This document shows, one piece after another, positions 1 through 47,172 of a DNA stretch of 64,000 bases (position 1 is its first letter; every line of letters begins with the position of its first letter). A model generated the notes under the pieces. It was not told the DNA's origin and made no database searches. It saw only the letters and a program-made list of their open reading frames with translations. The position numbers were made by a program, and so were the translations under genes. This DNA is from Naegleria gruberi (lineage: Eukaryota), in NCBI GenBank assembly GCA_000004985.1, contig GG738895.1; one strand, given 5' to 3'.

Positions 1-431
1 ACCCAACCCAAACCCAAACCCAAACCCAAACCCAAACCCAAACCCAAACCCAAACCCAAACCCAAACCCAAACCCAAACCCAAACCCAAACCCAAACCCA
101 AACCCAAACCCAAACCCAAACCCAAACCCAAACCCAAACCCAAACCCAAACCCAAACCCAAACCCAAACCCAAACCCAAACCCAAACCCAAACCCAAACC
201 CAAACCCAAACCCAAACCCAAACCCAAACCCAAACCCAAACCCAAACCCAAACCCAAACCCAAACCCAAACCCAAACCCAAACCCAAACCCAAACCCAAA
301 CCCAAACCCAAACCCAAACCCAAACCCAAACCCAAACCCAAACCCAAACCCAAACCCAAACCCAAACCCAAACCCAAACCCAAACCCAAACCCAAACCCA
401 AACCCAAACCCAAACCCAAACCCAAACCCAC
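1..431. repeat. Telomeric repeat array (CCCAAA)n, ~70 units (G-strand TTTGGG); window starts at a chromosome end
   Basis: Perfect 6-nt periodicity CCCAAA from base 1 to ~431 with one CCCAA variant at the very start. The C-rich strand reads 5'->3' on +, as expected for a left chromosome end. It passes abruptly into unique AT-rich DNA at 432. Confidence 0.9.
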
Positions 432-16027: not shown

Positions 16028-18956
16028 CTAGTCTTTTACCATCTCCTCTCCAAGCATTGCTTGAATACCATTTTGCAAATCGTTACGAGTACATGGCTTG
16101 CAAATCACTGCATCCACTACACTTGCATAATATTCAGCATTTGTTAGTGCATCTGCAGTCAACATGATTATCTTAATGTCCTTATATTTGGTCTTGATTA
16201 TTTTAGATGCCTCAATACCACTCATGAAGGGCATGTGCTATAATGTAAAATTAATTCATTCAAAATTTAAAACAACTCAGTAAACATACCATATCTGTAA
16301 TAACTAGTTTGTGTCGAGTTGGGTCAATTTTCTCTACCAACTGGCGACCGTCCACTGCTACATCCACCTCAAATCCCAAACTTCTCAACATTTTGGTAAG
16401 CACTTTTCGATTGATTGCATTATCTTCGGCAATAATAATTTGAATATTGTCTGTGTTTGGTTTGGAGGTTTCAGCATTCTTAACATAAGAGTCTGCCTTT
16501 TCAAATTGATCCAAATAATTGTTTTGAATGTCAATCTGTCTCTTGATTGAAAAATCGACAGTTTGCTCCTCTGCTGAAAGAACAACCTCCTTTGCATCCA
16601 AGGTATTCATGTTGTAAATTTGTATAGGTATTTGAATAGTAAAAGTGCTGCCATGATTTTCCTCTGACTCGAGAGTAATGCATCCATTCATGGAACGTAC
16701 AATATTAAGGCAAGTAGATAAACCTAAACCACTGCTTGGGAAAATACTTTCATTAAGGTTATGGAGCTGAATAAAATCATTAATATATGGAAACAATTAT
16801 TACTTACCTGACCAAATGGTTGAAAGATAAATTCTTGCTTCGACTTGGGAATACCAACACCATAATCAACAACCTTAAACTCAAACCATTGGTGAGAATT
16901 TTCCGTAATGACATTTGGAGGATTTGGTATTGTTTTGCAGTGAAGTTCTACAACTTGAGATGGATGAGAAGCTTTCACGGCATTAGTTAATAAATTAACT
17001 AGAATTTGACTCATTCTTGCCTGATTCATCTTGACAAAAACATTGGCCTCCAAATTTTGAGTAAATATCTGCACATCCACAACAAACTTTTTGGCATAGC
17101 TCTTCATAATTTCCTGTACACTTTGAAGGCAATTCCTCAGACAAAAAACTTGTTTGGTATTGGTTTGAACTTTGCTCTTGGTTTCATGTTCCGATTTTAC
17201 AAAAAGTAAAATATCCTCAATGAGAGTCAATAGAATATTTTCGGCACTCTCAATGGTTTCTATGTGTTCTCGTTGTTCCTTAGTCAGATTTGTTTCCTTA
17301 ATTAATTCTATCGATCCTAAACTACTCAGGGTTGGTGTTCTAAATTCGTGTGAAAGATGGCTGACAAAATTTGATTTGGCTTCCAAAGCCAATTTGAGTC
17401 TGTCTGTTGTTTCTTGAAGTTGATCACACTCTGATGATAATTGAACATTTCCGAACACTATAAATAATCCAAAAATTAGAATAGTATAAATGGCTGGTGA
17501 ATACTCGAAAATTACATCCAATGTGTAGGTCCATCCCATTGCATTGATTTTGAGCAGTCCAGCTAGAAAGTAGTGAAAAGCCATGGAAACTGTTGGAAGC
17601 ATTGACCAAAATGGATCTCCCTTACTATGAGCTGTTTTCAATGAAATTATTCCAATAGTAATATTAATAATAATAATAACAATAATTGAAAATTCCAATA
17701 TGCAATTTTACATTCCACAACAATAAATATTAAGAATTAAAAGAAATTGATAAAAACTCACCTGTGTTTTTAGACATGACTGCAATAGTTGCCAGTGAAT
17801 TGCTCAACATTAAAACTCTGTGCTTTTGCATTACAAAGAAACGAATTGAAAAGCTAACAACATTAAAAAGAATGATAACCTTTGATTCGTAAGTATTTTC
17901 TGCCTTATCCATCCTAATAAGACGTCCACTATTTACAAGTATCGTCAGTGCTCCCAGAATAAACATCCAAAAAGTTGCATTAATATCATGACTCTGTTCT
18001 CGAAAGACATACATGGTCTGTATCAGATATCCTGTATAAACTGTGAATAAAATCGTAGAAGCTTGAATTTTCAGCAGTGAATGCCAAGCTTTCGGAATGG
18101 ATGTTCCCTCAAGTGGCAAATTGAAAAAGTTTAAAGAGTAGTGAGCATTGGCTGAATAGGGTACATTTGTATGAGGTGTTGGTGAGTTGGAAAAATTCAT
18201 TTCTGTTGTTGTTGTTATATTCTCATCAGATGAAATGATTTTTGTGATTTTATCTTCCTTATCACTTGATGATGATGATGGTACTGATTCAATATTGTTT
18301 GAATCTATTAGATTCTTATTGCTAGATGATTTAGATATTTCTTCTCGTGAATTCTTCCTCAAATTGTTATCCAATACCTGTTTTTTAGTATTAATGATCG
18401 GATTTAGGTGGTATATCCTAGATGATAGGGTTTTCAAATAATCCTCTTCTTTTTCAGCACCTCCGCACTGTATCTTCTTTTCCGTATCACTATTATTAGT
18501 ACTAAGGTTATTATTGTCTATTTGTACTTCTCCTCCCTCTTCACAATTATTATTATTCTTACGAGTGGTAGATGCCTTTTTCAATTCTGATGATGATGAT
18601 AAGGAAGAAGTAAACGGTTGTTGCTTTTTTTCTGTAAGGTCCAAATTTGTTTGCTGCCTTACTAATTTTTGTTCTTGGGCGCAAAATAATGTCGTTGCAT
18701 TCTCCTCCGCCACAGAGGAGTTGACTTGTTCTTCTTCTTCTTGATGAGCAGTAAAAGAAGAGGAAGAAGAAGAATTTGATGATGATGAATGATGGCAAGT
18801 TGATGAAAAAGTATCGGAGGGAGAATTAGAAAGTTTTGATAGGGTTGTTGTGATATTGTTGGAGTGATGAAGATTGTTTAATTCTTCTGATGCTACTTCT
18901 TGTTGAAGAGGCATGTCATTTGTTGATGGAAGTGCTTGGTTTTTGGGTTCCAACAT
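16028..18956 (-). CDS. Hybrid sensor histidine kinase, 4 exons (18956..17762, 17631..16808, 16766..16290, 16237..16028)
   Basis: Ser-rich N-terminal region, then TM helices, HisKA (HEFRTPTLSSLGSIELI), HATPase_c (VVDYGVGIPKSKQEFIFQPFGQ | ...SSGLGLSTCLNIVRSMNGCITLESEENHGSTF) and a receiver domain (IIIAEDNAINRKVLTKML...LVITDM | HMPFMSGIEASKII...IIMLTAD). Introns of 130, 41 and 52 nt (GTGAGT..AACAG, GTAAGT..TTCAG, GTATGT..TATAG) restore the frame across the split track ORFs. Confidence 0.7.
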
Positions 18957-25610: not shown

Positions 25611-26900
25611 TTATAAAATTACACACTTCTTCTTGTTGGAAGTTGTATGTGGTTGTTCTTGTTGTTCTTGTTTGGAAGGAGAGCTACTTTTGACAGTACT
25701 CTTTCTTGAAACTTGTGATGATCCACCAGGTGAAGTTGGATCTGTTTGTTGTTGTTGATTATTGCTGCCAAAATTGAATAATAGAGAAGAACTCCTCCCT
25801 ACTGTTGTTGTTGGTGAGGAAACTTTTTCTAAGGATGTTTTCTTTGATACTTGTTCAGCAGAGGAGGATGAATCTGCTCCGAAAGTTGAAATGGTAGCAA
25901 ATTGACCATCAACTTCTCCCGATGGAGTTGTACTCGATAAAATCTTCTCCCCGAATGGATTCAAAGTAATTCCCTTATGTTGGAGAGTATAACGTGCAGC
26001 TCTCTGAAAAGCCACCTTTATATTTCTTCCCGATAAGGCTGAACATTCGAAATAATCAATTCCCTTAGGTGTAATGGTTGAGACATTTTTTTTTCGCGCC
26101 CATTCCTCTACTGTTGATTTTTCAACCTTTCTATTTAATTCGGGATTTTCTTCGGCCAAATCTACCTTATTGCCCTAAATTAAATATATTATAAATATTA
26201 TATTATTAACAATAGAATTGTTGTTGATCAAGTTGTGATTTCGATATTTGAAATCAAATATTATTATTTCATTCCAAAAAGAAAAATGCAAAAGAGAGTA
26301 ATTCGGATCAATTAAATTAAATAATATTAAATTATCAATTATTAACGTAATAACCTACCAATAGAACAATGGCTGGCCAATCATCAACATCTTTAACTCG
26401 TAATATTTGTTCGTAGAGTTCTTCTATATTTTCGTAGGACTTTTTATCATTGAGAGCAAAAACCAATAGGAAACCATCGGCTTGCTTCATCCAATTTTCC
26501 CTAAGGCTTGAAAATTCTTCCTATTATTATCATCAATATTTTGTTTTTAAATTAATATCATCAATCATCAGAGAATTACAAATAATATTAGAGTTTGTCA
26601 AGCTTGATAATACAAACCTGTCCGGCTGTGTCCAAGATGGAAAAACCACATGATTGACCATTTTCTAATTCGGTTACTTTATAATAACTATCATCATTGT
26701 TGTGGTGTATTAGAATTAAACAAGAAGATAACTACATACGAATCTTCAATGGTTGGGTCATAGTTTTCCGAGTAGCTATCAGATATGAATCTACATGTAA
26801 CACACGACTTTCCAACACCACCTATCCGAAACAATGATTATAATAACACTGTCTAGAGAATCAACATACCTGAACCAATAATTGCTAGTTTAACTTCCAT
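25611..26900 (-). CDS. Ras-family small GTPase, 5 exons, Ser/Thr-rich hypervariable region, C-terminal CaaX (CVIL)
   Basis: Exon 1 is [11 protein letters not shown] and exon 2 [11 protein letters not shown]...YDPT (G1). Later exons carry ...ILDTAGQ (G3), [25 protein letters not shown]...IVLLVG and NKVDL (G4)...ECSAL (G5), ending KKKCVIL*. Introns of 48-190 nt with GTATGT/GTTTGT/GTAGGT donors. Confidence 0.7.
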
Positions 26901-27262
26901 AGCGAACTGTTTATTGTTTCTTTTTTTCAGTGATTATGTAAAAGATGTTGACATGTATTATTGCCAAGTGATGTATTGGGAAGGATGAAGACAATTTAAG
27001 AAGAATTGTAACCTTTTTGGATTGATAGCAAGACCTTACATATTGAGGATGTTTCACATGCTAGCCATGGTAGCAATTGAAAACTCTGGACAACAAAACC
27101 AAGCCGTTCCAAATGTGATCAACTCTGTCTGTAAGGATTTGAAAATAAGAACAAAGTACGCTTCACCAAGTATCGACTGAAGAATACAATTAATCGAAAT
27201 TAAGGCATGATGTTTCTGCTCATTATTTCCTCTATGTTGAGCATCATTTAATTTAAAAAAAA

Positions 27263-28540
27263 ATGTTCTCATCTTTGGCTAGTAGACTGGTTTCTGCTGT
27301 AGGATCTCTTTTGGGTAAGAGAAATCCCGAAGAAGTACACGACCCATTGGAACCAGAAAAGAAAAAGAAAGCTTCTGGTCGATATGATACACATACAGAT
27401 CACAAAGACTTTATTACCATGATATGTGAAATGAGATTAGCTCTTGCAAAGAGTGTAAGAAAATTGATACGGGATGAACTTGAGGATTGGCATGATAAGA
27501 TTACTGTACTTGGAATCACAACAGATTCAAGAAATAGTTACCTTTACTCTATGCACTGTTCTATTGAGAAGAATTCTTCAAACAACAAATTTGCGATCAC
27601 AAACTATTTTCTTAATTACATTGGAGCCTTTTCTCATTTTGATGAAAAAGATAGAATTCGACTAATGTCGAAAATTATTGTTGCGTTGACAACTCCAATT
27701 TTTGGATCAGTTGAACAATATTTTCAAACTCATCAAAGTGCTTTAGATACCGCTAAACAATCAGTTGACTTCCCAACACACTTCTGCTTCACAAATCCAC
27801 AACCAAACAATGTAATTGTTACTTATAACAAAGAACGAGAGTATGTAGCAACAGGAAAAGTGATCAAAAGAGCCACAGTTTCAAATTCAACCTCCATTTA
27901 TGTGAAACGTAACAAAAGTGCAAATGAGAATGAGATTGCACGTACACTAATGTTTGCATCCCTTTATATCATAGCAGAAAAATCCAAATATTGTCTTTCC
28001 TTAGCTGGAACTCCACTATCTCATTTTTTTAATAGCAGAAATAATCTCCCTTCTAACTCTATACTCAACTTCACTCTAGACTTGCTTGCTCAATTGTACA
28101 TGCTAGAACAACAAAGTCACATTCACAATGATGTAAAACCAGAAAAGTTGTTTACTTAGTTTTTAGGATATAGAGCTCCAGAGAGAAAAGATAATGATCT
28201 TGTCTCCCCAAAAAGTGACATTTATTCCCTAGGTTTGGTAATTCTCGGAATACTTGGAGGTAACAGATATAAAAATTGGGAATCAAAAGACGAGAAGGAA
28301 ATCTTTAAGAAATGTGATGGATTCAAAGACTCTGCAGTACACAAGTTTATTAAGAGAATGTTATACACAGATACAGGGCAAAGAGGCTCTCCATTAAATT
28401 TAGTGGAATTATTGGCATCAGATATCGAGATTAAACCTAAATTGATTGAAACTTTGGATTATTTTAAGAAGAGGGATAGATTTTGGAATTTATTTGAGAT
28501 CAACGATATTGATGTTGCTCGTACTTTGTACTTTGAATGA
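27263..28540 (+). pseudogene. Protein kinase-like gene interrupted by an in-frame TAG (28157-28159); DFG segment absent
   Basis: The same frame reads ...HIHNDVKPEKLFT-TAG-FLGYRAPERKDNDLVSPKSDIYSLGLVILGILGG... It has a catalytic-loop-like HNDVKPEKL, an APE motif and DIYSLG (subdomain IX), but only 7 residues lie between the catalytic loop and APE. No GT..AG intron can remove the stop. Confidence 0.4.
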
Positions 28541-29340
28541 TTTCTCAACCAAAATTCCAAGAATATTTAGTAGTGAGGCAATTGAAATTGCTCTCAATTT
28601 TGTACTATGAGCCCAATTTGAGGAATGAGGATTAGTTTTTAGATGGTTGTTAAAACTGGAATTTTGCTCAACCTTAGTTATTGAAAGAGAAACATCTATG
28701 TAATCCAATCATTATTGAAGAAGATGAAAATAATACAAAAACAGATAATGAAGAAATTGAAGTAGAGAAGAAAACATCATATCATCAACGCTGACTATTC
28801 TCTCAATAATTCCTTCGTACATTTCTCCAAATGGTTTTGTTTTGAGGACATGCGTGGAAAATTCCGTAAATACCCACCAACAAGACAACACCAACCAATA
28901 CTAGCAATATTATTTCTCATGAAACATTCAAGAAACCATCAATTGGTAAAAAGTCAAAACGAAATCCTAGTTAAATGAGATCATTTCAATCTTGCGAAAA
29001 TGGGCCTACATTTTAACACGTTGGAAACGTAAGGGTCTTTTATAGTATATTGACTTGACCAATTTTGAAATAAGGCGCAATATTTTCGGTCCAACATGAC
29101 CACCAAAACCTAAACCAAGTCACAAATTATGAAGACACCAACTAGCTCCTCCTCACTGCTGCGCAACACCCAAAGAAAAGCAATTTCCTTAGAAGAGCCT
29201 TAATGATTTTTCTTAGGTAACAAGTTTCCCTAAGAAAAACCACACCGAATCAACAGCAATTGAAGTCAGTGATTTCTTCCCACGTTCATCTACTAGCTGA
29301 CAGTATTATTAATTGTATAGTATAACCAAAGTAGAAGAAA

Positions 29341-32300
29341 ATGTCTGCTGAGAATAATCCTCTGCCCAACAATGAGCAACACTATAAGGGAACTCCACAC
29401 AATAGCAATGCGAATAATAACATGTGGGGTTTGTTGGATAATCCACCACATGTCAATCTCTCGACACAACTCCTTCATGGCAGTGTGAATTTTAATAATA
29501 GCACTAATAATGTGACCACCAATACAATACAACAACAGGACAATTCTTCATCAATTATTAGTTCACCCACTTCAGCATCAGCAGCCAACAATTCAGTCTC
29601 AATTATGAGATTTGTCAAGGATAACATGTGGCAATTCTTCTCCGTGATTCAACACAGGTATGCTGTTAAGGGAAGGAAAATTTATATACTTTTCACATTA
29701 TTACACATTTACTATTCGTATGTGGTGATGATTTTACCAACATTGAGTTCACAAATTAATTCTCCTGCCTTCTCTGCAACAACTACCACGACAACTAATT
29801 CTAATAGTGGAACAATCAACAGAGACACAACACTTCACAATTATCCTTATGGTTTCTATGGGACTTGGCTGTTTAAAGCAATGAATTATCCTATAACATT
29901 ATCATTGGATTGGATTCCCTATGAGGCTGCTATTGCCGTTACAATTTTTGGTTTATCAGTTGCCTTAGTTCATATAACGATTCTATTTCTCACATTCAAG
30001 ACTAATTTCGGTCGATTACAAGAGAAACTCAAGAATATTTCCTTCATGTTGGCCATCTTTATTCTTTTCATTGGACCACCAACAGCATTTGTAATGACTT
30101 CCTTTATTGACTGCAATTATCAGCAATTAATTTTTTCAGTCATTGACAAGATGTACTCTGCCTCTCTGTGGAGATATCCCAATGTAATTTGTTCGAGTAG
30201 TATGAACGTGAGCATGATTGTTGTGTCCATCATTTCAATAGTCTTGTTTAGTTTTGGTTGGCTCTTTTCCTTATTCATTTTACCAATGGCCAATCCAAAG
30301 AGTCAAATTCCCTTCCTCATTTCCTACAAACTACCAATGTGTGTCATTTACACATCAACTGGATTCAGAATTCTGGTTCATTTCGCCATTCCATCTCAAT
30401 ACTCGTATGCCAGAGCCGCATTCCACATTGTGGCCTCGATTGGATTTATTCTCTTCTTTACAGATACAGTTCCACTGTATCGACGTGTGGAGAATAGTAT
30501 ATTCTTTTCAGTCTTGTGCACTTATTGTGCATTTGCTGTTGGTTTGTTAGTTTCATCAATTGTGAACTCGTCAACAGCTATCATGAATTATGATCTTCTA
30601 GGAATTGGATTAGGAGCTGGTTTGACAGTTGGTTTACCAATTGTTGTTTGGATACTTTCATTCACAGGTTTTGAAATTTACACACGAGTAGTATTTAAAA
30701 ACATCCAAAAGATTGTGAGAAGAAAATTGGAACATGATTCTCAACATGATAATTTTGAAACAGCTCAATCATCAATTTACATGATGTGCGAAGAGTATTC
30801 CATGAGAAATTTGAAATTCTATCTTCAATTCGTGAGTCAAATGCCAAAATCACAAGAAATGGTTCAAGCTTTGAGTTTTGTGAAATCTGAATCTCCACAA
30901 AAGTTTTTCACATCACCTTCCATTTTAATGATGGCAAGTGATCTTGTCGCTAGATGTTGGGGAGATGAAAATAGATTGAACTTTGCATTGTTCCTCCTTA
31001 AGAAGGCATTGAAACATAATGAAGGTCCTTGGCTTGCCATGCAAATTAAATTCAAATTGAGAGATGTTGAGAGTGAATTGTTTGAAAATGCAAATTATGG
31101 AAAATTTGGATATGCTGTGAAAAATGTTTTGATGGAAATTGAAAAGAAACAAGATCAAATCAAATCAATTCACAAACTATTTTGGAAGGAATTATTGAGT
31201 GATATTCCAAATAATGAAAAACTTGAAAGAATCAATGCAACAGCCACACATTTGACCCATTACTGTGAAGAACAATTTGAACACTTGTTGGCAAACTTTG
31301 CACACGACAAGACTGTATTGAGATATTATGCCAACTTTTTAGAAACTATCAAACAAGATAAGGAATCAGCAGTAACTTATTATGAAGAAGCGGCCTCCTT
31401 GGAAGAAGAAGATTCCAAGAATAAGTTTACCATGAAACGTTTCAGAAATAAGGTCATTCCAGAGTTGGCCGAGTCACAATCTTGGAATTTTATGAGAAGT
31501 TCCAGTAGAAAGGAGTTCAACAATGAAGATGTTGAGAAGGATTCGTTTGATGGAGTTGAGAAACAACTCGAAAAGAAACAAAATATTTATAGAAATTCAT
31601 TGAATACTCCATTCAAATCTCGTTCTAGATTGATTAGCTTTTGTGCGTTGAATATGATTGGATTGGGTTTGTTGTTTGTGGCGTTTGTCCTGTCATTGGT
31701 TTATGGAGATTATTTATCAAAGACTGATTTGGTAAAAGTGTCAAGTTTACCAATTTTAACACCTGGAGCATTGTTGAGAGATATTAGAATGAGACAAATT
31801 GTTTATGAATTATTCAATGTTGAAAATAAGACCTATCCCTCAAATGGTACTTCCGAATTTAGTTCACTTTCTTTCTTTTTATCAAACTATAAGGATAGAA
31901 TTAGACGTCAGAGAGAAATCTTATTGGACTTGAGTAGTAAATCAAGATCTGGGGAATTTACAAGCAAAATGTATGCTGACTTTATTAGGGAAGATAATGT
32001 AATTTCGATTCCTGTTGCAAGTGAAAGTGGAAAAGTAGAGTTCAAGTCAACCTTTCCAAAGAATACTTCAATTAGTGATGTAGTTCATGAACTTATTCAA
32101 CATTCCACTTATTTTAATTTGGCCTCTGATTCTGAATTTAACAAGACAACAACTTCTTATCCATTCATGTATATTTACCATAATAGGAGAACTGCACCTG
32201 ATGTGACCTTTGCATTTTTCAAGAATTTTCAAGAGAGCCAAAAGTTCGTCGTTGATTATGTGAATGAATTGTTGTGGAATTACATTTTAATTTCAGCACT

Positions 32301-34551
32301 GGTCTATATTGGAATCTTTTCCGGATTTATCATCATGTCCAGAGTTGAAATGCAAAGAATTTCATTCATCCTAGCTCTATACAGAAAGCTGCCAAAAGAC
32401 ATGATTGGTGTCATTTATCATGAAATTGATAAGAAGGGAGAAGATGTCAAGTATGAGAAGAGTAATATCTTTTTAAGACCAAAGGAATTTTCACTTGTTG
32501 TTGCATTTTGCATTATTTTCATTATTGCCGCCTATTCTGGAATTATTTACTTTGAAATTTCAGAGAATGTTAGCACTTCTACTGATAATTTGACTACTGT
32601 TAATCAATTATCAATTTTGATTAGAGCTGCCCACAGGTTGACCATTCGATTGGGTGAATTATTTGCCTACTTTGGATGTCCTACTGGAAGTCCAGTCAAT
32701 ATTGTAGTTTCACCTAGCTATGTGGCTCAATATAGACAAGATGCAAGAGGTTTCGTCAGTTTAATTACATCCAGTTACAATGAAGTTGTTTATGGAAATA
32801 ATAACAGTCAACCATTAATTGGAAGATTCTCCAAGATTGATAACATCATTAATGGACCATCCAATTGTACAGCTGATTCACCAGTTGAAGAATGTTCCAG
32901 TTTACAAACCTTCATTTCAGCGTTTACAATTTCAAGTTCTCAAATGACTGAAGAATTTTTCAATCCAACTTATCAAAAATCTGATTCACTTTTTTATCAA
33001 GTTTTGAAAATTTACAATATGAATGATGTTCTTTATGAAAGATTAATGGATTTGATGAATTTATTGTTCATTTCCACTTCAGAATCATTCAAAGTTTTGA
33101 CTATTACCTTTTTTATCTTTGGAGTTATACTTTATTTATTGTTTAGTTCATTGTTATTGTATAGTTTCTTGATTTATGATAGACAGATCACTAATTTGAG
33201 ATCTTTCTTGAATTATTTACCTGTTGATTATATAGATTCAAGTGAAGCTATGAGAAATTTCATTTATTTCAACTCACTCACAATATTCAAAAAGAAAATT
33301 AAGGAAGCAAATGATGATTCATTGAGAAATGTGTTGAGTTCAATGGTAGATGGTGCTCTTCTTGTTAATGAAAAATCAGAAATTATGTTATTCAACTTGA
33401 CAGCTCAGAAAATGTTTGGAAAAGCTCCAGAAGAAGTTATTGGTTTGAAATTTTACAACTTGTTCGAACCAAGTCAAAGTGAAAAATTGACATCTGTGGT
33501 CAAACAAGTGAAATCATCGTTGACAGATCCAAACTCAAAACATGGTGAAACTTTGGAATTGGATTGTATCAGAAAGAATCAATCTAAATTTCCAGCCATT
33601 GTAAACATTTTTGCAACACGTGAAAGAGGAGTTGTCATTTATGCCTTCTTTATTAAGGACATTACATCAGAAAAGAAACAAAATGCATTATTGAACGAGG
33701 AAAAGAAGAATTCTGAAAATTTATTGAGAAACATCTTGCCAGATTCTGTTGCCTTCAAATTGAAAGCAGGTGAAACATTAATTGCTGACAAGTTTTCTGA
33801 TATCACCTGTTTCTTTTCAGATATGGTCGGTTTTACCAAGTTTAGTTCTGGAATGAATCCAAATGAATTGGTAATCATGTTGAATACAGTGGTTAACGGC
33901 TTTGATGATTTAACAGACAAGTATCAATTGGAGAAAATTAAAACAATTGGAGATGCATACTTTTGTGTAGGTGGATTGCACGGATTAAATGCTCAATCAG
34001 ATCACCCTGAAAGATGTGTTAAATTCGCAATTGACACTCTCCAAGTAATCAAAGATTACAACATTCAAAATCCACATGCACAAATCAATATTCGTGTTGG
34101 ATTGAATACTGGAAGTGTTGTTGCAGGTGTGATTGGAAGAAAGAAATTTGCCTATGATTTATGGGGTGATACCATTAATATTGCCTCAAGAATGGAATCA
34201 AATTCATTGTCAGGAAGAATTCAATTATCGAGATCAAGTTATGAAAGGGTTTATGATATTTTCGAATTTGAGGAACGTAAAATTGAAGTGAAAGGAAAAG
34301 GAATGACTCTTGCTTATTTATTGAAAGAAAAACATCATTGCAATCCAATCATTACCATTCAATCACATGATGATGAAGATGATGTGAATACTGATAATGA
34401 TGAAATTGAGGTAGAGAAGAAACCATCCATGCAAAACCTGACTGCTCACTCTCCAAATAGTGGCATTCCAAATATCACTAGAGAACACAGTTTGAATCAA
34501 CATGGCAACAATAGTACACCAAATGTTATGAGTGACACTATGGTATTCTAA
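29341..34551 (+). CDS. Polytopic membrane protein with a PAS domain and a C-terminal class III adenylyl/guanylyl cyclase domain
   Basis: 1736-aa single exon with many TM helices across residues ~100-1220. PAS-like segment (SMVDGALLVNEKSEIMLFNLTAQKMFGKAPEEVIGLKF...). The cyclase domain has both metal Asp (FSDMVGFT; IKTIGDAYF) and the Asn/Arg pair (GDTINIASRMES). Confidence 0.8.
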   Translation: MSAENNPLPNNEQHYKGTPHNSNANNNMWGLLDNPPHVNLSTQLLHGSVNFNNSTNNVTTNTIQQQDNSSSIISSPTSASAANNSVSIMRFVKDNMWQFFSVIQHRYAVKGRKIYILFTLLHIYYSYVVMILPTLSSQINSPAFSATTTTTTNSNSGTINRDTTLHNYPYGFYGTWLFKAMNYPITLSLDWIPYEAAIAVTIFGLSVALVHITILFLTFKTNFGRLQEKLKNISFMLAIFILFIGPPTAFVMTSFIDCNYQQLIFSVIDKMYSASLWRYPNVICSSSMNVSMIVVSIISIVLFSFGWLFSLFILPMANPKSQIPFLISYKLPMCVIYTSTGFRILVHFAIPSQYSYARAAFHIVASIGFILFFTDTVPLYRRVENSIFFSVLCTYCAFAVGLLVSSIVNSSTAIMNYDLLGIGLGAGLTVGLPIVVWILSFTGFEIYTRVVFKNIQKIVRRKLEHDSQHDNFETAQSSIYMMCEEYSMRNLKFYLQFVSQMPKSQEMVQALSFVKSESPQKFFTSPSILMMASDLVARCWGDENRLNFALFLLKKALKHNEGPWLAMQIKFKLRDVESELFENANYGKFGYAVKNVLMEIEKKQDQIKSIHKLFWKELLSDIPNNEKLERINATATHLTHYCEEQFEHLLANFAHDKTVLRYYANFLETIKQDKESAVTYYEEAASLEEEDSKNKFTMKRFRNKVIPELAESQSWNFMRSSSRKEFNNEDVEKDSFDGVEKQLEKKQNIYRNSLNTPFKSRSRLISFCALNMIGLGLLFVAFVLSLVYGDYLSKTDLVKVSSLPILTPGALLRDIRMRQIVYELFNVENKTYPSNGTSEFSSLSFFLSNYKDRIRRQREILLDLSSKSRSGEFTSKMYADFIREDNVISIPVASESGKVEFKSTFPKNTSISDVVHELIQHSTYFNLASDSEFNKTTTSYPFMYIYHNRRTAPDVTFAFFKNFQESQKFVVDYVNELLWNYILISALVYIGIFSGFIIMSRVEMQRISFILALYRKLPKDMIGVIYHEIDKKGEDVKYEKSNIFLRPKEFSLVVAFCIIFIIAAYSGIIYFEISENVSTSTDNLTTVNQLSILIRAAHRLTIRLGELFAYFGCPTGSPVNIVVSPSYVAQYRQDARGFVSLITSSYNEVVYGNNNSQPLIGRFSKIDNIINGPSNCTADSPVEECSSLQTFISAFTISSSQMTEEFFNPTYQKSDSLFYQVLKIYNMNDVLYERLMDLMNLLFISTSESFKVLTITFFIFGVILYLLFSSLLLYSFLIYDRQITNLRSFLNYLPVDYIDSSEAMRNFIYFNSLTIFKKKIKEANDDSLRNVLSSMVDGALLVNEKSEIMLFNLTAQKMFGKAPEEVIGLKFYNLFEPSQSEKLTSVVKQVKSSLTDPNSKHGETLELDCIRKNQSKFPAIVNIFATRERGVVIYAFFIKDITSEKKQNALLNEEKKNSENLLRNILPDSVAFKLKAGETLIADKFSDITCFFSDMVGFTKFSSGMNPNELVIMLNTVVNGFDDLTDKYQLEKIKTIGDAYFCVGGLHGLNAQSDHPERCVKFAIDTLQVIKDYNIQNPHAQINIRVGLNTGSVVAGVIGRKKFAYDLWGDTINIASRMESNSLSGRIQLSRSSYERVYDIFEFEERKIEVKGKGMTLAYLLKEKHHCNPIITIQSHDDEDDVNTDNDEIEVEKKPSMQNLTAHSPNSGIPNITREHSLNQHGNNSTPNVMSDTMVF

Positions 34552-35052: not shown

Positions 35053-38000
35053 ATGTCAACCCAAACAACAAAACCCTCCATTGTTCTCTTCATTAGGACC
35101 TCAAATTCATCAAAGAAGCAATCAATAATTTGTGATCATATTAGAAAGATGACTTTTGGCAAGCCCCATGAAGGTAATGCTCTATTAGTATTACAAGTTG
35201 GTTCAGAGCCAATTCTACTTGATGATCTTGTTATTAAATTGAAAGGATGGAAGATCGGACAACATGTTTCACAAGAACAACAACCTCCTCACTTTGTACA
35301 TACTAACAAGTTGCGAGATTGTTTGCAGTATTCGAAAGGTTCAACTCTTAAAAATTCTTCATGTACATTCAATGCATTGGATGTGAATGCATGCAATCAA
35401 CTTGAGAAAGGACAGCACTATGCTATTCGATTGAGTGATGTTAAATTGGCCTTTCTTCCACCTTCACTAGATTTTGATCAAGTGCAAGTTGAAATTTTCA
35501 AGAAGGATCAACTTGTTGGTGCAATTTCACATTCAAAACAAGAGGCCATCGACAGTCATATCGAAATGAGTGCAAAGAGTCTTGTTAGTAAATGGAAAAC
35601 AAAATCAAGATACGAACATTTGGATTTGATAGATGGAGTTGGAGCTGCAGATTTCATTGTAATTAATGTAGACGCTCTTATTTCAATGGCTTTAAAAAAG
35701 AGTAATGGATTGGATTGGAAAGAGCACGGTGGACAATGGTTGCATCTTGTATGGTTATGTGAAAAGATGCTCTCACTTCTAAAGTCCAGAAATGTGAATT
35801 TTGATCTAATTTGTTTTAAGAATTCAATTATTATGGATGGCAATTTCAGCTTTTTTGTTGCGAGAATGATAGTTTTCAATCATTTGAAAAAGTATTGTAC
35901 CTTTCCATGTTACTTGTTTGATTCATTATTATCAAAAGAGTGGGAGGAATATATCAGACAAGCCAATCCATCTGCAGTTATTTCAAGTGATTGCAATTAC
36001 ACAAATGCTTATTTGAATTTGATGTCTAATATTTCCTATATTGTAACAAATGTTGAAGAAGGTGCTAAATCTGTACTAGGTGATGTTTATTCAAGTGCTT
36101 ACCTATCATGGGTTAGGTCTGTAGAGCCAGAGCTAGACAATTTGTCAAAATTTTTACAAAATTCTTCAATTTCTAGCACTTTGAAGATTAGAGAATTTCA
36201 CCAATTAGAAAATGTTATGAAACAAGTTAATGAATTACAATTACATAGTAATTTTACAAGACTTGAGGTATTTTTAAGCTCTTTCCTATTATTTATTGAA
36301 AATTGTAAACAAGACAAAGTTATGGAAAGCTTGTTTTATGGTATTTCAATGATTTATTCAGTTGTCTTGTTGGATTACCTACCAATTGAAGCTAGACATT
36401 GTAATTTGAAAGAGACAATCAATGAATTGACACAATTCATGCAAGAGTTATACAAGTATTGCTCTATGGTACTATTTGAAATTGATAATTTCCAAGATAT
36501 TTCATGTGATTTATTGGATTGTAGATTGATTCATTGGCTGATTTTGAATTTCAAACCAAACAATCCATTTACACTAAATCAATGGATAGAGATTATATGT
36601 GAATTATCACCACAGCCTGTAAAAGATAGCTTGAATAAGATAGTACTATTGTTGAAAGAAAGAGTGTCATTCGATTTTGACTCTGACTTTGAATTTTCAT
36701 CTATTGTCAGCCCTTACATTAGAAATTATGCCTACGACTACAGTAATAGCAAAAACAGATGCACAGTATTAGAAGTTAAAAATAATTTCATTAACACATT
36801 CTGTAATTTACAATCTAGCTCAGTGATCCAAGAAGATTCCTTTAAAAAACCTTTATTTTATGATATTTATCACTTTCACTCCACAAGATTGATAACAGAC
36901 ACTGCAGAACATTTAGAAAGGAACAAGTATTCAACAGTTGACAAAACAAGAGAAAAGTTGAACGGAATGGTTGAATTATTTAAGAAAGTGAATAAGTGCA
37001 AAGAAATAGCAACTGAACAAGTACCAAAAGATTTAAAATTCACTGAGCATGTCAATGAAAAGAATATTATGAAAATAGTTTCTGAAAATTATGAAAAATC
37101 ACAGAAACCACTGAATGCCATTAAGGAAATTATTAGAAAACAAGAAAGTCTTGTTAAGAAAAAAGAAGACGAAGAAGAAACCTTTTCAATTTCAGAATTA
37201 GTATCAATTTCACTTACTATCCAGGAAAATATTCAACAATTTATACCTATTATGGGCAAATACAGTCCAAAGAATAACACCACAATGGTTTTTGGCAAGA
37301 AATTGTACATTCAATTATTAGATTCCTTCAAATATCAACTTCCAAAATCAAGAAAACCTATAGAATCTAAATTATTACAAAGAACAGTAGAGGGTCCCAC
37401 ATCTAAAATTTCATTGAACGAATTGGAAGAGCAAAAAGCCATGTACAGATTGTACCACGTTAATAGTTGGATAAGATTTATTTATTCATACTTGATGGAA
37501 CTAAACAGTCTATGTCTCTATTTCACTGAGAAGGAAATTGCCAAAGAATTGGAAAATCTTGCCACCTCTGCCAGAATGTTTGGATTTTGTCAAACGGCAC
37601 AATTAATTGAAAATGAAATTAGTCCAAAGAAAATTTCCAAACACGAGGAGGATATTATTGATCCAAATTATTTATTTTTATATCATTTTGAAAAAACAGC
37701 ACCAACAACACCTCCATTAGAAAGATTTACAAAGAAGAAACATAACCAAATTTTAAATGAACTAGTTCAAGAAAAGGTTCTTCTAATAGAGAAACTTAAA
37801 AAAGACTCCTCAACTAAATCTAGAGAAGAAATTTCACATGAAATCAAGAAAGTGAATGTAAATATCAAATTGAGAGAGAGTTTAACATTTACACCTGATG
37901 ATTGGCAAAATCAACTTATTTCTTATGTAAATAGAGATGAATCTGTGTTAGTCTCAGTGCCAACTTCAAATGGTAAAACATTTATTGTATTTTATTTGAT

Positions 38001-45066: not shown

Positions 45067-47172
45067 ATGCTCAATACTAGTAGTAATTATTTAAAAACCA
45101 AGCACTTTGCTCATCTCTTTGAAAATCTCTCCTTTGCCAATACATTTTGCAAGGAAACTCTTGCTGATCCCTTAGGGCAATTAAACAAGACTCGACAAGT
45201 GCTGGGCTCCATGTATTCATATGTGGATTCTACACCATTGGAGAAGGCTAAATATGCCTTTGATCCTAGTAGTGGACGTTTACTTCCCACTCGACAACAA
45301 GTTTCCGAAGACTTTGATGATCAAGATGAAGAGAGAAATAATAGAAGTAATATATTGTCATCTTCATCATCATCATCTGTGGGTATATTGAAATCTGCAA
45401 CATCTGATAAGGGAGTAACATCTGATTTTATTAATTTAATTGATTATAACAGGTATTCTCGTTTTGAATTTGTGATGGCTTCGAATAGTGTTGCAAAGGA
45501 ATGTTTGAATGGAGACTTGTTGTCGAGTGAAAGTGGTGATGAGAGAGGAGTGAATGGAGTGAATGACTTGATTACTGTGGAACATTTGATGAAACAACAG
45601 GAGAAGGAACATGATTTGGATAATTTTGTAAATATACTATCTGGATATGATCTTGTAAATAGTACTAAATATTATGCACATTGTTATGGTGGTTTTCAGT
45701 TTGGAAATTGGGCTGGTCAATTGGGTGATGGAAGAGCTATTAGTATGGGACAAGTTGAAACACCATTCACAGATATGGATTCGTCTGGTTTCGAGTTTAA
45801 CAATAGTAGAAATTCCTACAATTATATCAAACCAAAGAGATTGTGGGAGTTGCAATTCAAGGGAGCTGGTCACACACCATTCTCTAGACATGCAGATGGA
45901 AGAGCAGTATTGAGATCTTCTATTAGAGAATTTTTGGGTAGTGAATTTATGGACAGTTTGGGAATTGCTACAACGAGAGCATTCTCACTTGTGAGAAGTA
46001 AGGAAAAGGCAGTCCTCAGAGATGAATTCTATGATAACAATCCAAAATATGAATATGGAGCTATTGTATTGAGAGTTGCTCCAACTTTTGTCAGATTTGG
46101 ATCCTTTGATATTTTCAATTACAGATATCATCCTATCAATGAAAAGGAAAAGGCATTGGAAGAGAAGAAGAATATCGAAGTATTGGCTCGTTATGTCATT
46201 AAGAATCACTTCCCTCATTTGTGGATTAATGGTGATCTCACTTTGGAATTGAAGGAAAAGTTTTCAAAGGAGATTGTTAGAAGAACTGCCAAATTATGTG
46301 CTGATTGGATGTCTGTTGGCTTTGTTCACGGAGTTCTCAATACGGATAACATGAGTATTCTAGGATTGACTATTGATTATGGTCCATTTGGATTTGTTGA
46401 TTATTTTTCTGAAGATTTCGTACCAAATAACAGTGATAGTGACGGTAGATATCGTTACAAGAATCAACCAGCTATTGTCTTTTGGAATTTACAAAAGTTG
46501 ATGAGAGCTTTCACACCAACACTCCTTCCAGAGGAATACTTTGCCAAAGTTTTGAATGTTTATGCTCCACACTTTGAACATTACTACTTGATGAATTTTA
46601 GAAAGAAACTTGGTTTGATTTCTTCCAGTACAATTATTGACACTTCTGAAGATGTTACCAACTTTGACATGTTTGATGGCGATTCTGAGAATTTAAGAAA
46701 TGAAGATTGGGAGCTTATTGAGGGATTTTTGGCTTGGATGAATGAGAACAGAGCTGATTTTACCAACTTTTTCAGATTATTGTCAAATGTAAAGAAGGGA
46801 GCAGAAGTTTCTCAAGAGTTACTCGATAATTTACTTCAAACAAGAATGCACGCTGATCACACTCCATCTGAAACAACTGTATCAGAGCTCAAGAATTGGC
46901 TCTCCATTTATACCAAGAGACTTGAATCTGTTCCACTCTCCGATGAGGAAAGAAAGACTCAAATGGACAAGACTAATCCAAGATACATCTTGAGAAATTA
47001 CATTGCCCAAAAGGTAATCAAATCAGCTGAAGAATTTGACTATGGTCCACTCTATGAATATTACAATGTTCTGAGAAATCCATATGATAATCATTCTACA
47101 GAGTTTGAAGAAAAGTTTGGTGGTAATGCACCACTTTCTTCTCGTTGTTTGAAATTGAGCTGTAGTTCTTAA
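45067..47172 (+). CDS. selO: SelO / UPF0061-family protein adenylyltransferase homologue (Cys form, C-terminal ...CSS)
   Basis: YAHCYGGFQFGNWAGQLGDGRAISMGQ and downstream conserved SelO blocks. The C-terminus ...LKLSCSS* has Cys (TGT) where selenoprotein O carries Sec. ~150-aa N-terminal extension. Confidence 0.8.
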   Translation: MLNTSSNYLKTKHFAHLFENLSFANTFCKETLADPLGQLNKTRQVLGSMYSYVDSTPLEKAKYAFDPSSGRLLPTRQQVSEDFDDQDEERNNRSNILSSSSSSSVGILKSATSDKGVTSDFINLIDYNRYSRFEFVMASNSVAKECLNGDLLSSESGDERGVNGVNDLITVEHLMKQQEKEHDLDNFVNILSGYDLVNSTKYYAHCYGGFQFGNWAGQLGDGRAISMGQVETPFTDMDSSGFEFNNSRNSYNYIKPKRLWELQFKGAGHTPFSRHADGRAVLRSSIREFLGSEFMDSLGIATTRAFSLVRSKEKAVLRDEFYDNNPKYEYGAIVLRVAPTFVRFGSFDIFNYRYHPINEKEKALEEKKNIEVLARYVIKNHFPHLWINGDLTLELKEKFSKEIVRRTAKLCADWMSVGFVHGVLNTDNMSILGLTIDYGPFGFVDYFSEDFVPNNSDSDGRYRYKNQPAIVFWNLQKLMRAFTPTLLPEEYFAKVLNVYAPHFEHYYLMNFRKKLGLISSSTIIDTSEDVTNFDMFDGDSENLRNEDWELIEGFLAWMNENRADFTNFFRLLSNVKKGAEVSQELLDNLLQTRMHADHTPSETTVSELKNWLSIYTKRLESVPLSDEERKTQMDKTNPRYILRNYIAQKVIKSAEEFDYGPLYEYYNVLRNPYDNHSTEFEEKFGGNAPLSSRCLKLSCSS

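What the first reader, a model, noticed from the sequence alone, without database searches (positions are those of the whole stretch)
27263..28540. Kinase-like gene with an in-frame TAG and no DFG segment
The reading frame continues perfectly across a single TAG at 28157-28159 (…HNDVKPEKLFT * FLGYRAPE…DIYSLG…). Only 7 residues separate the catalytic-loop-like motif from APE, so the Mg-binding DFG/activation segment is missing. This is either a recent pseudogene, a pseudokinase expressed via stop-codon readthrough, or a sequencing error. TAG is a genuine terminator elsewhere in the window (50762, 60631).
Basis: seen in the sequence. Interest (0 to 1): 0.5.

Follow-up and report, generated by a model that had tools for sequence, protein, structure and literature searches.

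The report
Deletion-broken kinase gene; stop is intron remnant
This is an ordinary, very recently broken copy of an amoeba (Naegleria gruberi) protein-kinase gene: a 113-base deletion removed the part encoding the kinase's active-site segment plus the start of a tiny intron, and the in-frame TAG is leftover intron sequence.

Summary
The window is Naegleria gruberi nuclear DNA. Frame 27263-28540 has one internal stop, TAG 28157-28159, and the DFG/activation segment is absent.

The cause is not a nonsense mutation, readthrough or a base-calling error. Two contigs of one environmental assembly (L002, L001) are about 99% identical to this locus. They carry 114 nt where the window has a single G (28147). 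Those 114 nt are 98 nt of exon (…KPE-NIVLYDNHWFLIDFEIGLRFNPKENTYSKSFTK-G) plus the first 16 nt of a 35-nt GTAAGT…TTTTTAG intron. The window keeps only the last 19 nt of that intron (28148-28166), and the TAG lies inside it. Intron length and deletion length are both 2 mod 3, so the frame appears to continue.

A second deletion of 742 nt (235 codons plus a 36-nt intron), at 27370|27371, removed most of the family's N-terminal region. Restoring both gives an open 686-aa ORF that scores 64 bits on Pfam Pkinase, against 31.4 for the window version.

Paralogues in N. gruberi, N. lovaniensis and Willaertia keep the segment, and one shares the intron position. The annotated 298-aa "predicted protein" (XP_002672712) is therefore a truncated product of an unprocessed pseudogene or null allele.

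Interest is low. Read-level confirmation in strain NEG-M was not possible.

The parts
27263..28159 (+). ORF annotated as N. gruberi 'predicted protein' XP_002672712.1 / NAEGRDRAFT_72080 (298 aa). It is the truncated reading frame of the broken kinase gene.
   Evidence: 100% match to P0001; ORF list.
27263..27370 (+). 36-codon N-terminal leader (MFSSLASRLVSAVGSLLGKRNPEEVHDPLEPEKKKK). In the metagenome relative it is also the start of a different gene, which encodes a villin-headpiece domain.
   Evidence: L002 945-1052 and L004 12-119 are 98-99% identical.
27370..27371 (+). Junction of deletion 1. The 742 nt present in L002 (1053-1794) are absent here: 705 coding nt (235 codons of the family N-terminal region), a 36-nt intron, and 1 extra T that is specific to L002. 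The junction is blunt.
   Evidence: blastn L002 1-1052 = 26333-27370 and 1795-2443 = 27371-28029; tblastn of paralogues onto the extra segment; junction sequences.
27371..28146 (+). Retained part of the family N-terminal region, the kinase N-lobe (beta3 Lys in ...IYVKRNK) and the catalytic loop HNDVKPE (Asp290 codon at 28130-28132).
   Evidence: Family alignment A1; PDB alignments.
28147..28147 (+). Junction of deletion 2. A single filler G replaces 114 nt (L001 91-204): 98 nt of exon encoding N-IVLYDNHWFLIDFEIGLRFNPKENTYSKSFTK-G, plus the first 16 nt (GTAAGTATTTTCTTTT) of a 35-nt intron.
   Evidence: Alignment A2 and blastn.
28148..28166 (+). 19-nt 3' remnant of the 35-nt phase-1 intron (TTGTTTACTTAGTTTTTAG). 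It contains the in-frame TAG at 28157-28159 and the former acceptor AG at 28165-28166.
   Evidence: Identical to L001 205-223, where it is the end of a GTAAGT...TTTTTAG intron. Removing that intron joins ...SFTK-G to YRAPE in frame. A paralogous locus, L003, has a 38-nt intron in the same Gly codon.
28167..28540 (+). Former exon 2: kinase C-lobe ((G)YRAPE, SPKSDIYSLG, ...QRGSP...) through the TGA stop at 28538-28540. It is still open, with 3 substitutions and one 6-nt indel relative to L001.
28607..28681 (+). Frameshifted remnant (about the first 27 codons) of the gene that follows the kinase in the metagenome relative (a 213-aa ORF, MSPILRNEE...). Homology to L001 stops at 28681.
   Evidence: blastn alignment with 1-, 2-, 8- and 13-nt indels; tblastn finds only residues 14-27.
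28673..28778 (+). Fragment 77% identical to the 3' end (34313-34427) of the neighbouring PAS-cyclase ORF. It is evidence of a further rearrangement immediately downstream.
   Evidence: Self-blastn, E = 1.6e-19; cyclase domains.

Best explanation
The locus is an unprocessed pseudogene, or at least a null allele in the sequenced haplotype. It belongs to a Naegleria/Willaertia-specific Ser/Thr protein-kinase family whose members have about 400 family-specific N-terminal residues followed by a kinase domain with HND, DF(Y)-E/G/D and GYRAPE motifs.

Shown: relative to a ~99% identical environmental Naegleria sequence, the window lacks two blocks.
- Deletion 1 is 742 nt at 27370|27371. It covers 235 codons of the N-terminal region plus a 36-nt intron.
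- Deletion 2 is 114 nt replaced by one G at 28147. It covers the 98 exon nucleotides that encode beta7-beta8, the Mg-binding DFE (= DFG) motif and the activation loop, plus the first 16 nt of a 35-nt intron, including its GTAAGT donor.

The 19 nt of intron that remain cannot be spliced out and are read as codons (K)-L-F-T-stop-F-L-(G). The TAG is simply part of the old intron's pyrimidine-rich 3' end. The 35-nt intron and the net 113-nt loss are both 2 mod 3, so genomic exon 1 and exon 2 fall into the same frame. That produced the illusion of one ORF interrupted by a single stop.

Inferred: any transcript would yield at most the 298-aa N-terminal fragment, which lacks the DFE motif, the activation segment and the whole C-lobe and so cannot be an active kinase. 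The blunt and 1-nt-filler junctions suggest end-joining repair. The events are very recent, because the flanking coding sequence differs from the relative by only 0.8%.
For: Identity of the window:
- ORF 27263-28159 is 100% N. gruberi XP_002672712.

The metagenome relative:
- L001 1-90 equals window 28057-28146 (100%).
- L001 91-204 is missing from the window.
- L001 205-769 equals window 28148-28681.
- L002 1-1052 equals window 26333-27370, including the upstream Ras-like gene and the intergenic region, so the loci are syntenic.
- L002 1053-1794 is missing from the window, and L002 1795-2443 equals window 27371-28029.

Polarity (deletion here, not insertion there):
- All full-length paralogues carry the segment: N. 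gruberi P0006, P0007 and P0091, N. lovaniensis P0005 and P0092, Willaertia P0010, and environmental P0014 and P0093.
- The extra N-terminal block is homologous to the paralogues' N-terminal regions.

Intron:
- It has GTAAGT...TTTTTAG boundaries, and removing it gives ...SFTKGYRAPE, matching the family consensus S(R/Q/K)GYRAPE.
- Paralogous locus L003 has a 38-nt intron in the same codon and phase.
- Introns of 36-41 nt occur elsewhere in this gene and in the window.

Reconstruction:
- Adding back both blocks gives 2061 nt (686 aa) with no internal stop.
- Pfam Pkinase scores 64.4 bits in one stretch, against 31.4 bits in two stretches for the window version.
- There is a continuous alignment to solved kinases, with LIDFEIG opposite IFDFGIA.

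Further decay nearby:
- The downstream neighbour gene is reduced to a frameshifted 75-nt stub, followed by a cyclase-gene fragment.
Against: - No reads, ESTs or RNA-seq of strain NEG-M could be examined. I cannot show that the deletions exist in the organism rather than in the sequenced clones or assembly, nor that a second, intact allele is absent. Naegleria is described as a heterozygous diploid (PMC9928731).
- L001 and L002 are separate contigs with a 27-nt gap between them, so their physical linkage is inferred.
- L001 loses similarity to the window beyond 28681, so on the downstream side orthology versus recent paralogy is not proven.
- The metagenome copy itself carries two small frameshifts relative to the family frame: an extra T in a T7 run, and a 10-nt gap equal to window 27995-28004. 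The 'intact ancestor' is therefore a composite reconstruction, not an observed sequence.
- Both large deletions preserve the mRNA reading frame, which would happen by chance about 1 time in 9. This could hint at residual selection on an ORF.
Confidence: 0.85

Rival explanations
1. Cloning or assembly artefact. The NEG-M genome really contains the intact gene, and the two blocks were lost in the Sanger clones or in the assembly.
For: It cannot be excluded without reads. AT-rich inserts can suffer deletions in E. coli. Exact-product look-ups for the window ORFs found no independent assembly of this allele.
Against: Three independent structural differences lie within 1.4 kb, and small indels in the neighbouring gene stub add to them. 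That many differences are hard to attribute to one artefact. No repeats flank the missing blocks that could collapse an assembly. The junctions are clean, blunt or with a 1-nt filler.
Confidence: 0.07
2. Expressed pseudokinase made by translational readthrough of the TAG.
For: The 126 codons after the TAG are still open and kinase-like. Both deletions keep the mRNA frame.
Against: The TAG and its neighbours are intron sequence that a ~99% identical relative splices out, so the stop is not a conserved feature. The open downstream frame is explained by recency: 3 substitutions in 374 nt. The context TAG-TTT-TTA is not a known readthrough-promoting context (established knowledge). No suppressor tRNA is in the window. 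TAG terminates other ORFs here. The product would lack the DFE motif, the activation loop and 235 N-terminal residues.
Confidence: 0.02
3. A cryptic GT-AG intron still removes the TAG, giving a shorter in-frame protein.
For: In-frame GT...AG pairs spanning the TAG exist, for example 28116-28166 (51 nt, GTCACA...TTTTTAG, using the native acceptor) and 28133-28159 (27 nt).
Against: None of these has the GTAAGT/GTAGGT donor seen in the three verified introns of this family. The candidates using the native acceptor delete the catalytic loop HND. The shortest are below the 35-41 nt seen for real introns here. The 20-nt GT(28147)...AG(28166) option shifts the frame into a TAG. No candidate restores the DFG segment.
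Confidence: 0.03
4. The environmental sequence gained insertions, and the window shows the original, naturally DFG-less gene with a simple nonsense mutation.
For: Only one closely related sequence was available for comparison.
Against: Every more distant family member, from three species and two genera, has the DF(Y)x segment and the N-terminal region. The 'inserted' block would have to supply a perfectly in-frame kinase beta7-beta8/DFG/activation loop plus a canonical splice donor.
Confidence: 0.01

Closest known systems
Unprocessed (non-retroposed) pseudogenes or null alleles created by genomic deletion
   Same: It sits in its native, syntenic position with the upstream Ras-like neighbour. 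It retains intron sequence, and it is disabled by deletions that remove essential coding sequence and a splice donor. It is still annotated as a protein-coding gene.
   Different: Nothing essential differs. One unusual detail is that the premature stop comes from an exonised intron remnant and that the deletion happens to restore genomic frame continuity, mimicking a single nonsense codon.
Naegleria/Willaertia-specific kinase family: N. gruberi XP_002681892, XP_002682523 and XP_002683583; N. lovaniensis XP_044542251 and XP_044541430; Willaertia magna KAL9657304
   Same: 25-36% identity across the retained N-terminal region, N-lobe, catalytic loop (HNDxKPxN) and C-lobe (GYRAPE...SPKSDIYSLG). 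It shares a phase-1 intron in the Gly codon before YRxPE.
   Different: This copy lacks 235 N-terminal codons and the 26 codons carrying the DF(Y)x motif and activation loop. Its first 36 codons are a leader that the paralogues do not share.
Eukaryotic protein kinase domain (Pfam PF00069). The best solved matches are PknB/Stk1-type Ser/Thr kinases (4eqm), PLK3 and MAP2K7.
   Same: The reconstructed protein has the beta3 Lys, HxD...KPxN, DFx, APE and DxxSxG elements and aligns continuously.
   Different: There is no recognisable GxGxxG loop, HND replaces HRD and DFE replaces DFG. The window version falls below the Pfam threshold.
Pseudokinases lacking DFG
   Same: The Mg-binding Asp and the activation segment are absent.
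   Different: Recognised pseudokinases are intact, conserved ORFs that fold as a full bilobal domain. This one is interrupted by a stop, is missing structural strands beta7-beta8, and arose within the divergence of two ~99% identical strains.
Programmed stop-codon readthrough genes
   Same: An in-frame stop is followed by a long open, protein-like frame.
   Different: The stop is not conserved, there is no known readthrough context, and the downstream frame is open only because the lesion is recent.

Membership tests
Eukaryotic protein kinase domain (Pfam PF00069) | Score at or above the curated gathering threshold over a contiguous domain | tested here: not met
   The window version scores 31.4 bits against a cut-off of 31.7, split into two stretches. 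The reconstructed ancestral protein scores 64.4 bits in one stretch, residues 424-637.
Eukaryotic protein kinase domain (Pfam PF00069) | Catalytic loop Asp and Asn (HRDxKxxN) | tested here: met
   HNDVKPE is present at residues 288-294 (28124-28144) and aligns to HRDIKPQN of 4eqm. The Asn is lost in the window (KPEK) because the deletion junction falls in its codon; it is present (KPEN) in L001.
Eukaryotic protein kinase domain (Pfam PF00069) | Mg-binding DFG Asp and activation segment up to APE | tested here: not met
   Both are absent from the window, where 9 codons lie between KPEK and APE. They are present as LIDFEIG...GYRAPE in L001 and as DF(Y)-E/G/D in all paralogues.
Eukaryotic protein kinase domain (Pfam PF00069) | Beta3 (VAIK) Lys and glycine-rich loop | tested here: inconclusive
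   A conserved (V/C)K column (IYVKRNK) aligns across the family. No GxGxxG motif is recognisable in any member, and the Pfam match starts only at profile position 20.
Unprocessed pseudogene / null allele | A disabling lesion relative to an intact close homologue | tested here: met
   There are two deletions (742 nt, and 114 nt replaced by 1 nt) and a resulting premature TAG, relative to L002/L001. The restored ORF is open for 686 codons.
Unprocessed pseudogene / null allele | Native genomic context and retained intron sequence (not a retrocopy) | tested here: met
   The upstream 1 kb, including the Ras-like gene, is collinear with L002 at 96.7%. A 19-nt intron remnant is retained.
Unprocessed pseudogene / null allele | The lesion is real in the organism, and no functional product is made | not testable with these tools
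   No NEG-M reads, ESTs or proteomics are accessible. Exact-product look-ups were negative.
Programmed stop-codon readthrough | The stop codon and downstream ORF are conserved in relatives | tested here: not met
   In the closest relative the TAG lies inside a spliceable 35-nt intron, and the coding sequence is continuous after splicing.
Programmed stop-codon readthrough | Ribosomes demonstrably pass the stop | not testable with these tools
   This needs ribosome profiling or mass spectrometry.
Stop-codon reassignment (TAG as a sense codon) | TAG occurs frequently inside conserved ORFs and is not used as a terminator | tested here: not met
   ORFs of 1736 and 1914 aa contain no in-frame TAG. 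TAG ends 2 of 19 long ORFs. No tRNA with a CUA anticodon is in the window.
Pseudokinase (expressed, catalytically dead kinase fold) | An uninterrupted ORF encoding a complete bilobal fold, conserved among relatives | tested here: not met
   The ORF is interrupted at codon 299, beta7-beta8 and the activation segment are missing, and the state is not shared by the ~99% identical relative.

The most novel reading that the evidence does not exclude
The lesions may not be random decay. Three structural losses lie within 1.4 kb. Both large-deletion left breakpoints sit at or next to the only two + strand copies of ACCAGAAAA(G) in 64 kb. In addition, a 36-codon promoter-proximal 'leader' is shared at 98-99% identity with an unrelated villin-headpiece gene, and its boundary coincides with a deletion breakpoint. 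Together these could reflect a recurrent, sequence-guided rearrangement process in Naegleria subtelomeres, about 27 kb from an (ACCCAA)n array. Such a process, for example breakage or template switching at purine-rich Lys-codon runs, would shuffle 5' modules and trim genes. A weaker variant is that the 298-aa truncated product is expressed and acts as a kinase-dead regulatory fragment.
Probability: 0.05. Interest if true: 0.45.

Novelty: new member of a known kind. Interest (0 to 1): 0.15.

Why it matters
Mainly for annotation. NAEGRDRAFT_72080 / XP_002672712 is a truncated pseudogene product and should not be counted in the N. gruberi kinome. The paralogue XP_002681892 appears mis-spliced at the same conserved mini-intron.

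It is also a clean worked example of how an in-frame stop with a perfectly continuing frame can arise from a deletion that exonises an intron remnant. This is a trap for readthrough or recoding screens in genomes with 35-40-nt introns.

It also documents a Naegleria/Willaertia-restricted kinase family with a large unannotated N-terminal region, and very recent strain-level gene decay near a chromosome end. None of this is surprising to a specialist.

Tried and rejected
1. Word-indexed protein searches.
- (conceptual 425-aa protein) returned only the self hit.
- (family profile) was swamped by generic kinases, but did surface P0047, the key lead.
- (reconstructed 686-aa protein) did not even recover the self protein.
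- Absence of an intact NEG-M copy therefore cannot be concluded from these searches.

The 298-aa ORF was used instead, and that search found the family.

3. Exact-product look-ups for the window's 298-aa ORF and for its 101-aa downstream ORF found nothing on record.

4. Two JGI metagenome scans, with a 27-mer upstream of the junction and a 34-mer in exon 2, gave 0 hits.

5. No paralogue of the gene lies in the 64-kb window.

6. I initially read 'LFT' as homologous to the 'ILL/IVL' that follows KPxN, and '*' as a mutated Tyr codon (TAY to TAG) aligned with SYSQGY of P0005. I rejected this once L001 showed these codons are intron sequence.

7. Enumerating in-frame GT-AG introns across the TAG found no credible rescue.

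8. Literature searches for Naegleria intron lengths, for the metagenome project PRJEB11402 and for Naegleria telomeres gave nothing specific. They yielded only the statements that Naegleria is a heterozygous diploid with about 265 kinases (PMC9928731) and that no telomere information existed in 2013 (PMC3622300).

9. dN/dS: with only 10 substitutions (6 non-synonymous, 4 synonymous) in 1221 nt, there is too little signal to infer selection.

Full report
**What the window is.** ORF 27263-28159 is 100% identical to the 298-aa 'predicted protein' XP_002672712.1 / NAEGRDRAFT_72080 of Naegleria gruberi. The window is about 33% G+C. It carries long intron-poor ORFs that use the standard code, and it begins with 72 copies of ACCCAA. 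The gene of interest therefore lies about 27 kb from a telomere-like array.

**Checking the observation.** The frame that starts at ATG 27263 has one internal stop, TAG 28157-28159, before TGA 28538-28540.
- The other two frames have 69 stops in 850 codons. The 126 open codons after the TAG are therefore not chance (P about 2e-5).
- The conceptual 425-residue protein hits Pfam Pkinase at 31.4 bits (cut-off 31.7) in two pieces. The C-terminal piece covers profile positions 161-253.
- Alignments to solved kinases show that about 30 residues between the catalytic loop and APE have no counterpart.

**Finding relatives.** An exhaustive HMMER search with the 298-aa ORF found a small family of 14 clusters.
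- Members with names come from N. gruberi (XP_002681892, XP_002682523, XP_002683583), N. lovaniensis (XP_044542251, XP_044541430) and Willaertia magna (KAL9657304).
- They share about 400 family-specific N-terminal residues with no Pfam match, followed by a kinase domain.
- Every full-length member has, after HNDxKPxN, a block of 41-48 residues before APE that contains (W/Y)F(L/I)ID(F/Y)(E/G/D). This is the DFG equivalent. The window lacks it.

**The decisive comparison.** A profile search surfaced P0047, a 103-aa ORF 95% identical to the window's C-terminal part. It comes from an ENA metagenome assembly (ERZ929261 / ERR1078381). Its contig is L001.
- L001 1-90 matches window 28057-28146 at 100%.
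- L001 205-769 matches window 28148-28681.
- L001 91-204 (114 nt) is represented in the window by a single G at 28147.
- The extra 114 nt read ...CCA GAA AA|T ATT GTA CTA TAC GAT AAT CAT TGG TTT TTG ATT GAC TTT GAA ATA GGT ... TTT ACC AAA G|GTAAGTATTTTCTTTT. They are 98 nt of exon encoding (N)IVLYDNHWFLIDFEIGLRFNPKENTYSKSFTK(G), followed by the first 16 nt of an intron.
- The complete intron in L001 is GTAAGTATTTTCTTTTTTGTTTACTTAGTTTTTAG (35 nt, phase 1). Removing it joins ...SFTK-G to YRAPE, exactly the family consensus.
- The window retains only the last 19 nt of this intron (28148-28166), and the 'in-frame TAG' lies inside those 19 nt.
- The intron (35 nt) and the net loss (113 nt) are both 2 mod 3. 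The two exons, which are out of frame in the intact genomic sequence, therefore become co-linear in frame after the deletion. This explains why 'the reading frame continues perfectly'.

**The intron is a family feature.** The metagenome orthologue of paralogue XP_002681892 (L003) has a 38-nt GTAGGT...AAAG intron in the same Gly codon and phase. It gives ...SFSRG|YRSPERVSS. The deposited N. gruberi model reads ...SFSR|DLQRVSS and appears mis-spliced there. Introns of 36-41 nt with GTAAGT donors are also seen elsewhere in this gene and in the window. A 35-nt intron is therefore normal for this genome.

**A second deletion.** P0008 shares the first 36 residues with the window ORF. Its contig, L002, comes from the same metagenome.
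- L002 1-1052 is collinear with window 26333-27370 at 96.7%. This stretch includes the divergently oriented Ras-like gene and the intergenic region, so the loci are syntenic.
- L002 1795-2443 is collinear with window 27371-28029 at 97.6%.
- The 742 nt in between are absent from the window.
- That block is 705 coding nt (235 codons), a 36-nt GTAAGT...GGATAG intron, and one extra T. It is homologous to the N-terminal regions of the paralogues.

**Reconstruction.** I joined the window's own coding parts with the two missing blocks, removing the introns and the extra T.
- The result is a 2061-nt ORF of 686 aa with no internal stop. This is the size of the paralogues (666-792 aa).
- It scores 64.4 bits on Pkinase in a single stretch.
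- It aligns continuously with solved Ser/Thr kinases, with HNDVKPENIVLYDNHWF-LIDFEIG opposite HRDIKPQNILIDSNKTLKIFDFGIA of 4eqm. 220 PDB sequences match at E <= 1e-4, against a best E of 0.0018 before restoration.
- The polarity is thus clear: the window has deletions, and the relative does not have insertions.

**How recent, and how real.**
- Shared coding sequence differs at 10 of 1221 positions (6 non-synonymous, 4 synonymous) plus one 6-nt in-frame indel. This is too few to measure selection, but it shows the lesions are very young. That alone explains the still-open downstream frame.
- The junctions are blunt (deletion 1) or carry a 1-nt filler (deletion 2), with no flanking repeats. This argues against assembly collapse and fits end-joining repair (inference).
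- The surroundings are also damaged. The 213-aa gene that follows the kinase in L001 survives in the window only as a frameshifted 75-nt stub (28607-28681).
- Immediately after the stub comes a 106-nt fragment 77% identical to the 3' end of the neighbouring PAS-cyclase gene.
- The metagenome copy has two small frameshifts of its own: a T7 run at L002 1421-1427, and a 10-nt gap corresponding to window 27995-28004, which lies 35 nt from a contig end. These may be real, meaning independent decay of a dispensable gene, or assembly errors.

**Mechanistic conclusion.**
- Shown: the DFG/activation segment, the intron donor and 235 N-terminal codons are missing, and the TAG is intron-derived.
- Inferred: the remnant cannot be spliced. 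The native donor is gone. The only GT that pairs with the native acceptor at a very short distance gives a 20-nt 'intron' and a frameshift. Other in-frame GT-AG pairs have non-consensus donors, and those using the native acceptor delete the catalytic loop.
- Translation would therefore stop at codon 299. The resulting fragment lacks the Mg-binding Asp, the activation loop and the C-lobe, so it cannot be an active kinase.
- Readthrough is not supported. The stop is not conserved, the context is not a known readthrough context, TAG is a terminator here, and no suppressor tRNA is nearby.

**What remains open.**
- I could not inspect NEG-M reads or transcripts. A cloning or assembly artefact (about 7%) or an intact second allele in this heterozygous diploid (PMC9928731) remains possible.
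- L001 and L002 are not physically joined (27-nt gap).
- Three coincidences are unexplained:
  - The 36-codon leader is 98-99% identical to the start of an unrelated villin-headpiece gene in the same metagenome (L004), and the point of divergence coincides with the left breakpoint of deletion 1.
  - Both deletion left breakpoints lie at or near the only two + strand copies of ACCAGAAAA(G) in the window.
  - Both deletions preserve the mRNA frame.

**Verdict.** This is a correctly spotted anomaly with an ordinary explanation. It is a young, unprocessed pseudogene or null allele of a lineage-specific kinase family, whose 'single in-frame stop' is an exonised intron remnant. Interest is low. Its value lies mainly in annotation and as a cautionary example for recoding screens.

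Noticed in passing
window 1-430: There are 72 near-perfect tandem copies of ACCCAA (TTGGGT on the other strand) at the very start of the window. This is a telomere-like array, so the whole window is subtelomeric. A 2013 survey stated that no information on N. gruberi telomeres was available (PMC3622300).
   Followed up: partly
window 27263-27370; L004 1-118; L002 934-1051: The 36-codon leader, plus at least 11 nt of 5' UTR, of the kinase gene is 98-99% identical to the start of a different gene in the same metagenome. That gene is the leader plus a villin-headpiece domain (PF02209), 124 aa in all. The point where the two genes diverge coincides with the left breakpoint of the 742-nt deletion.
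   Followed up: partly
L002 1421-1427 and L002 ~2409 (= window 27995-28004): The environmental relative's copy has its own two frameshifts relative to the family frame: an extra T in a T7 run, and a 10-nt gap (CTTTCCTTAG) 35 nt from the contig end. The cause is either independent decay in that strain or metagenome assembly errors.
   Followed up: partly
window 28607-28681 and 28673-28778: Downstream of the kinase lies a frameshifted stub of the first ~27 codons of a 213-aa gene that is intact in L001 (683-1324). It is followed directly by a fragment 77% identical to the 3' end of the adjacent cyclase ORF (34313-34427). This indicates a further deletion or rearrangement.
   Followed up: partly
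L003 3790-3840 (paralogue locus); protein P0091 = XP_002681892: The deposited N. gruberi model XP_002681892 reads ...SFSR|DLQRVSS and so loses the GYRSPE motif. The DNA of its metagenome orthologue supports a 38-nt GTAGGT...AAAG intron giving ...SFSRG|YRSPERVSS. The reference annotation is probably mis-spliced.
   Followed up: partly
proteins P0006, P0007, P0010, P0091, P0092; reconstructed residues 1-420: The kinase family has about 400 conserved N-terminal residues (motifs such as PLF.., IIRED, H.DF...MRLALS, WH..., GITTD) with no Pfam match. It was found only in Naegleria and Willaertia. No member has a recognisable GxGxxG loop.
   Followed up: partly
window 59257-59294 (+) and 16767-16807 (-): Candidate 38-nt and 41-nt GTAAGT introns join adjacent long ORFs (58608-59273 with 59297-60337, and 16724-17698 with 16260-16796). 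Mini-introns of 35-41 nt seem to be the norm here.
   Followed up: no
window 27352-27361 and 28138-28147: The only two + strand copies of ACCAGAAAAG in the 64-kb window sit at or next to the left breakpoints of the two large deletions. The final G of the second copy is the junction filler base.
   Followed up: no
window 25611-26834 (-), 29341-34551, 35053-40797, 45067-47172, 47181-48743 (-), 55842-58421: The neighbourhood is rich in signalling genes. It holds an intron-containing Ras-like GTPase, a 1736-aa multi-pass PAS-adenylate/guanylate cyclase, a 1914-aa DEAD-box helicase protein, SelO, a G-alpha subunit and a dual-specificity phosphatase.
   Followed up: partly
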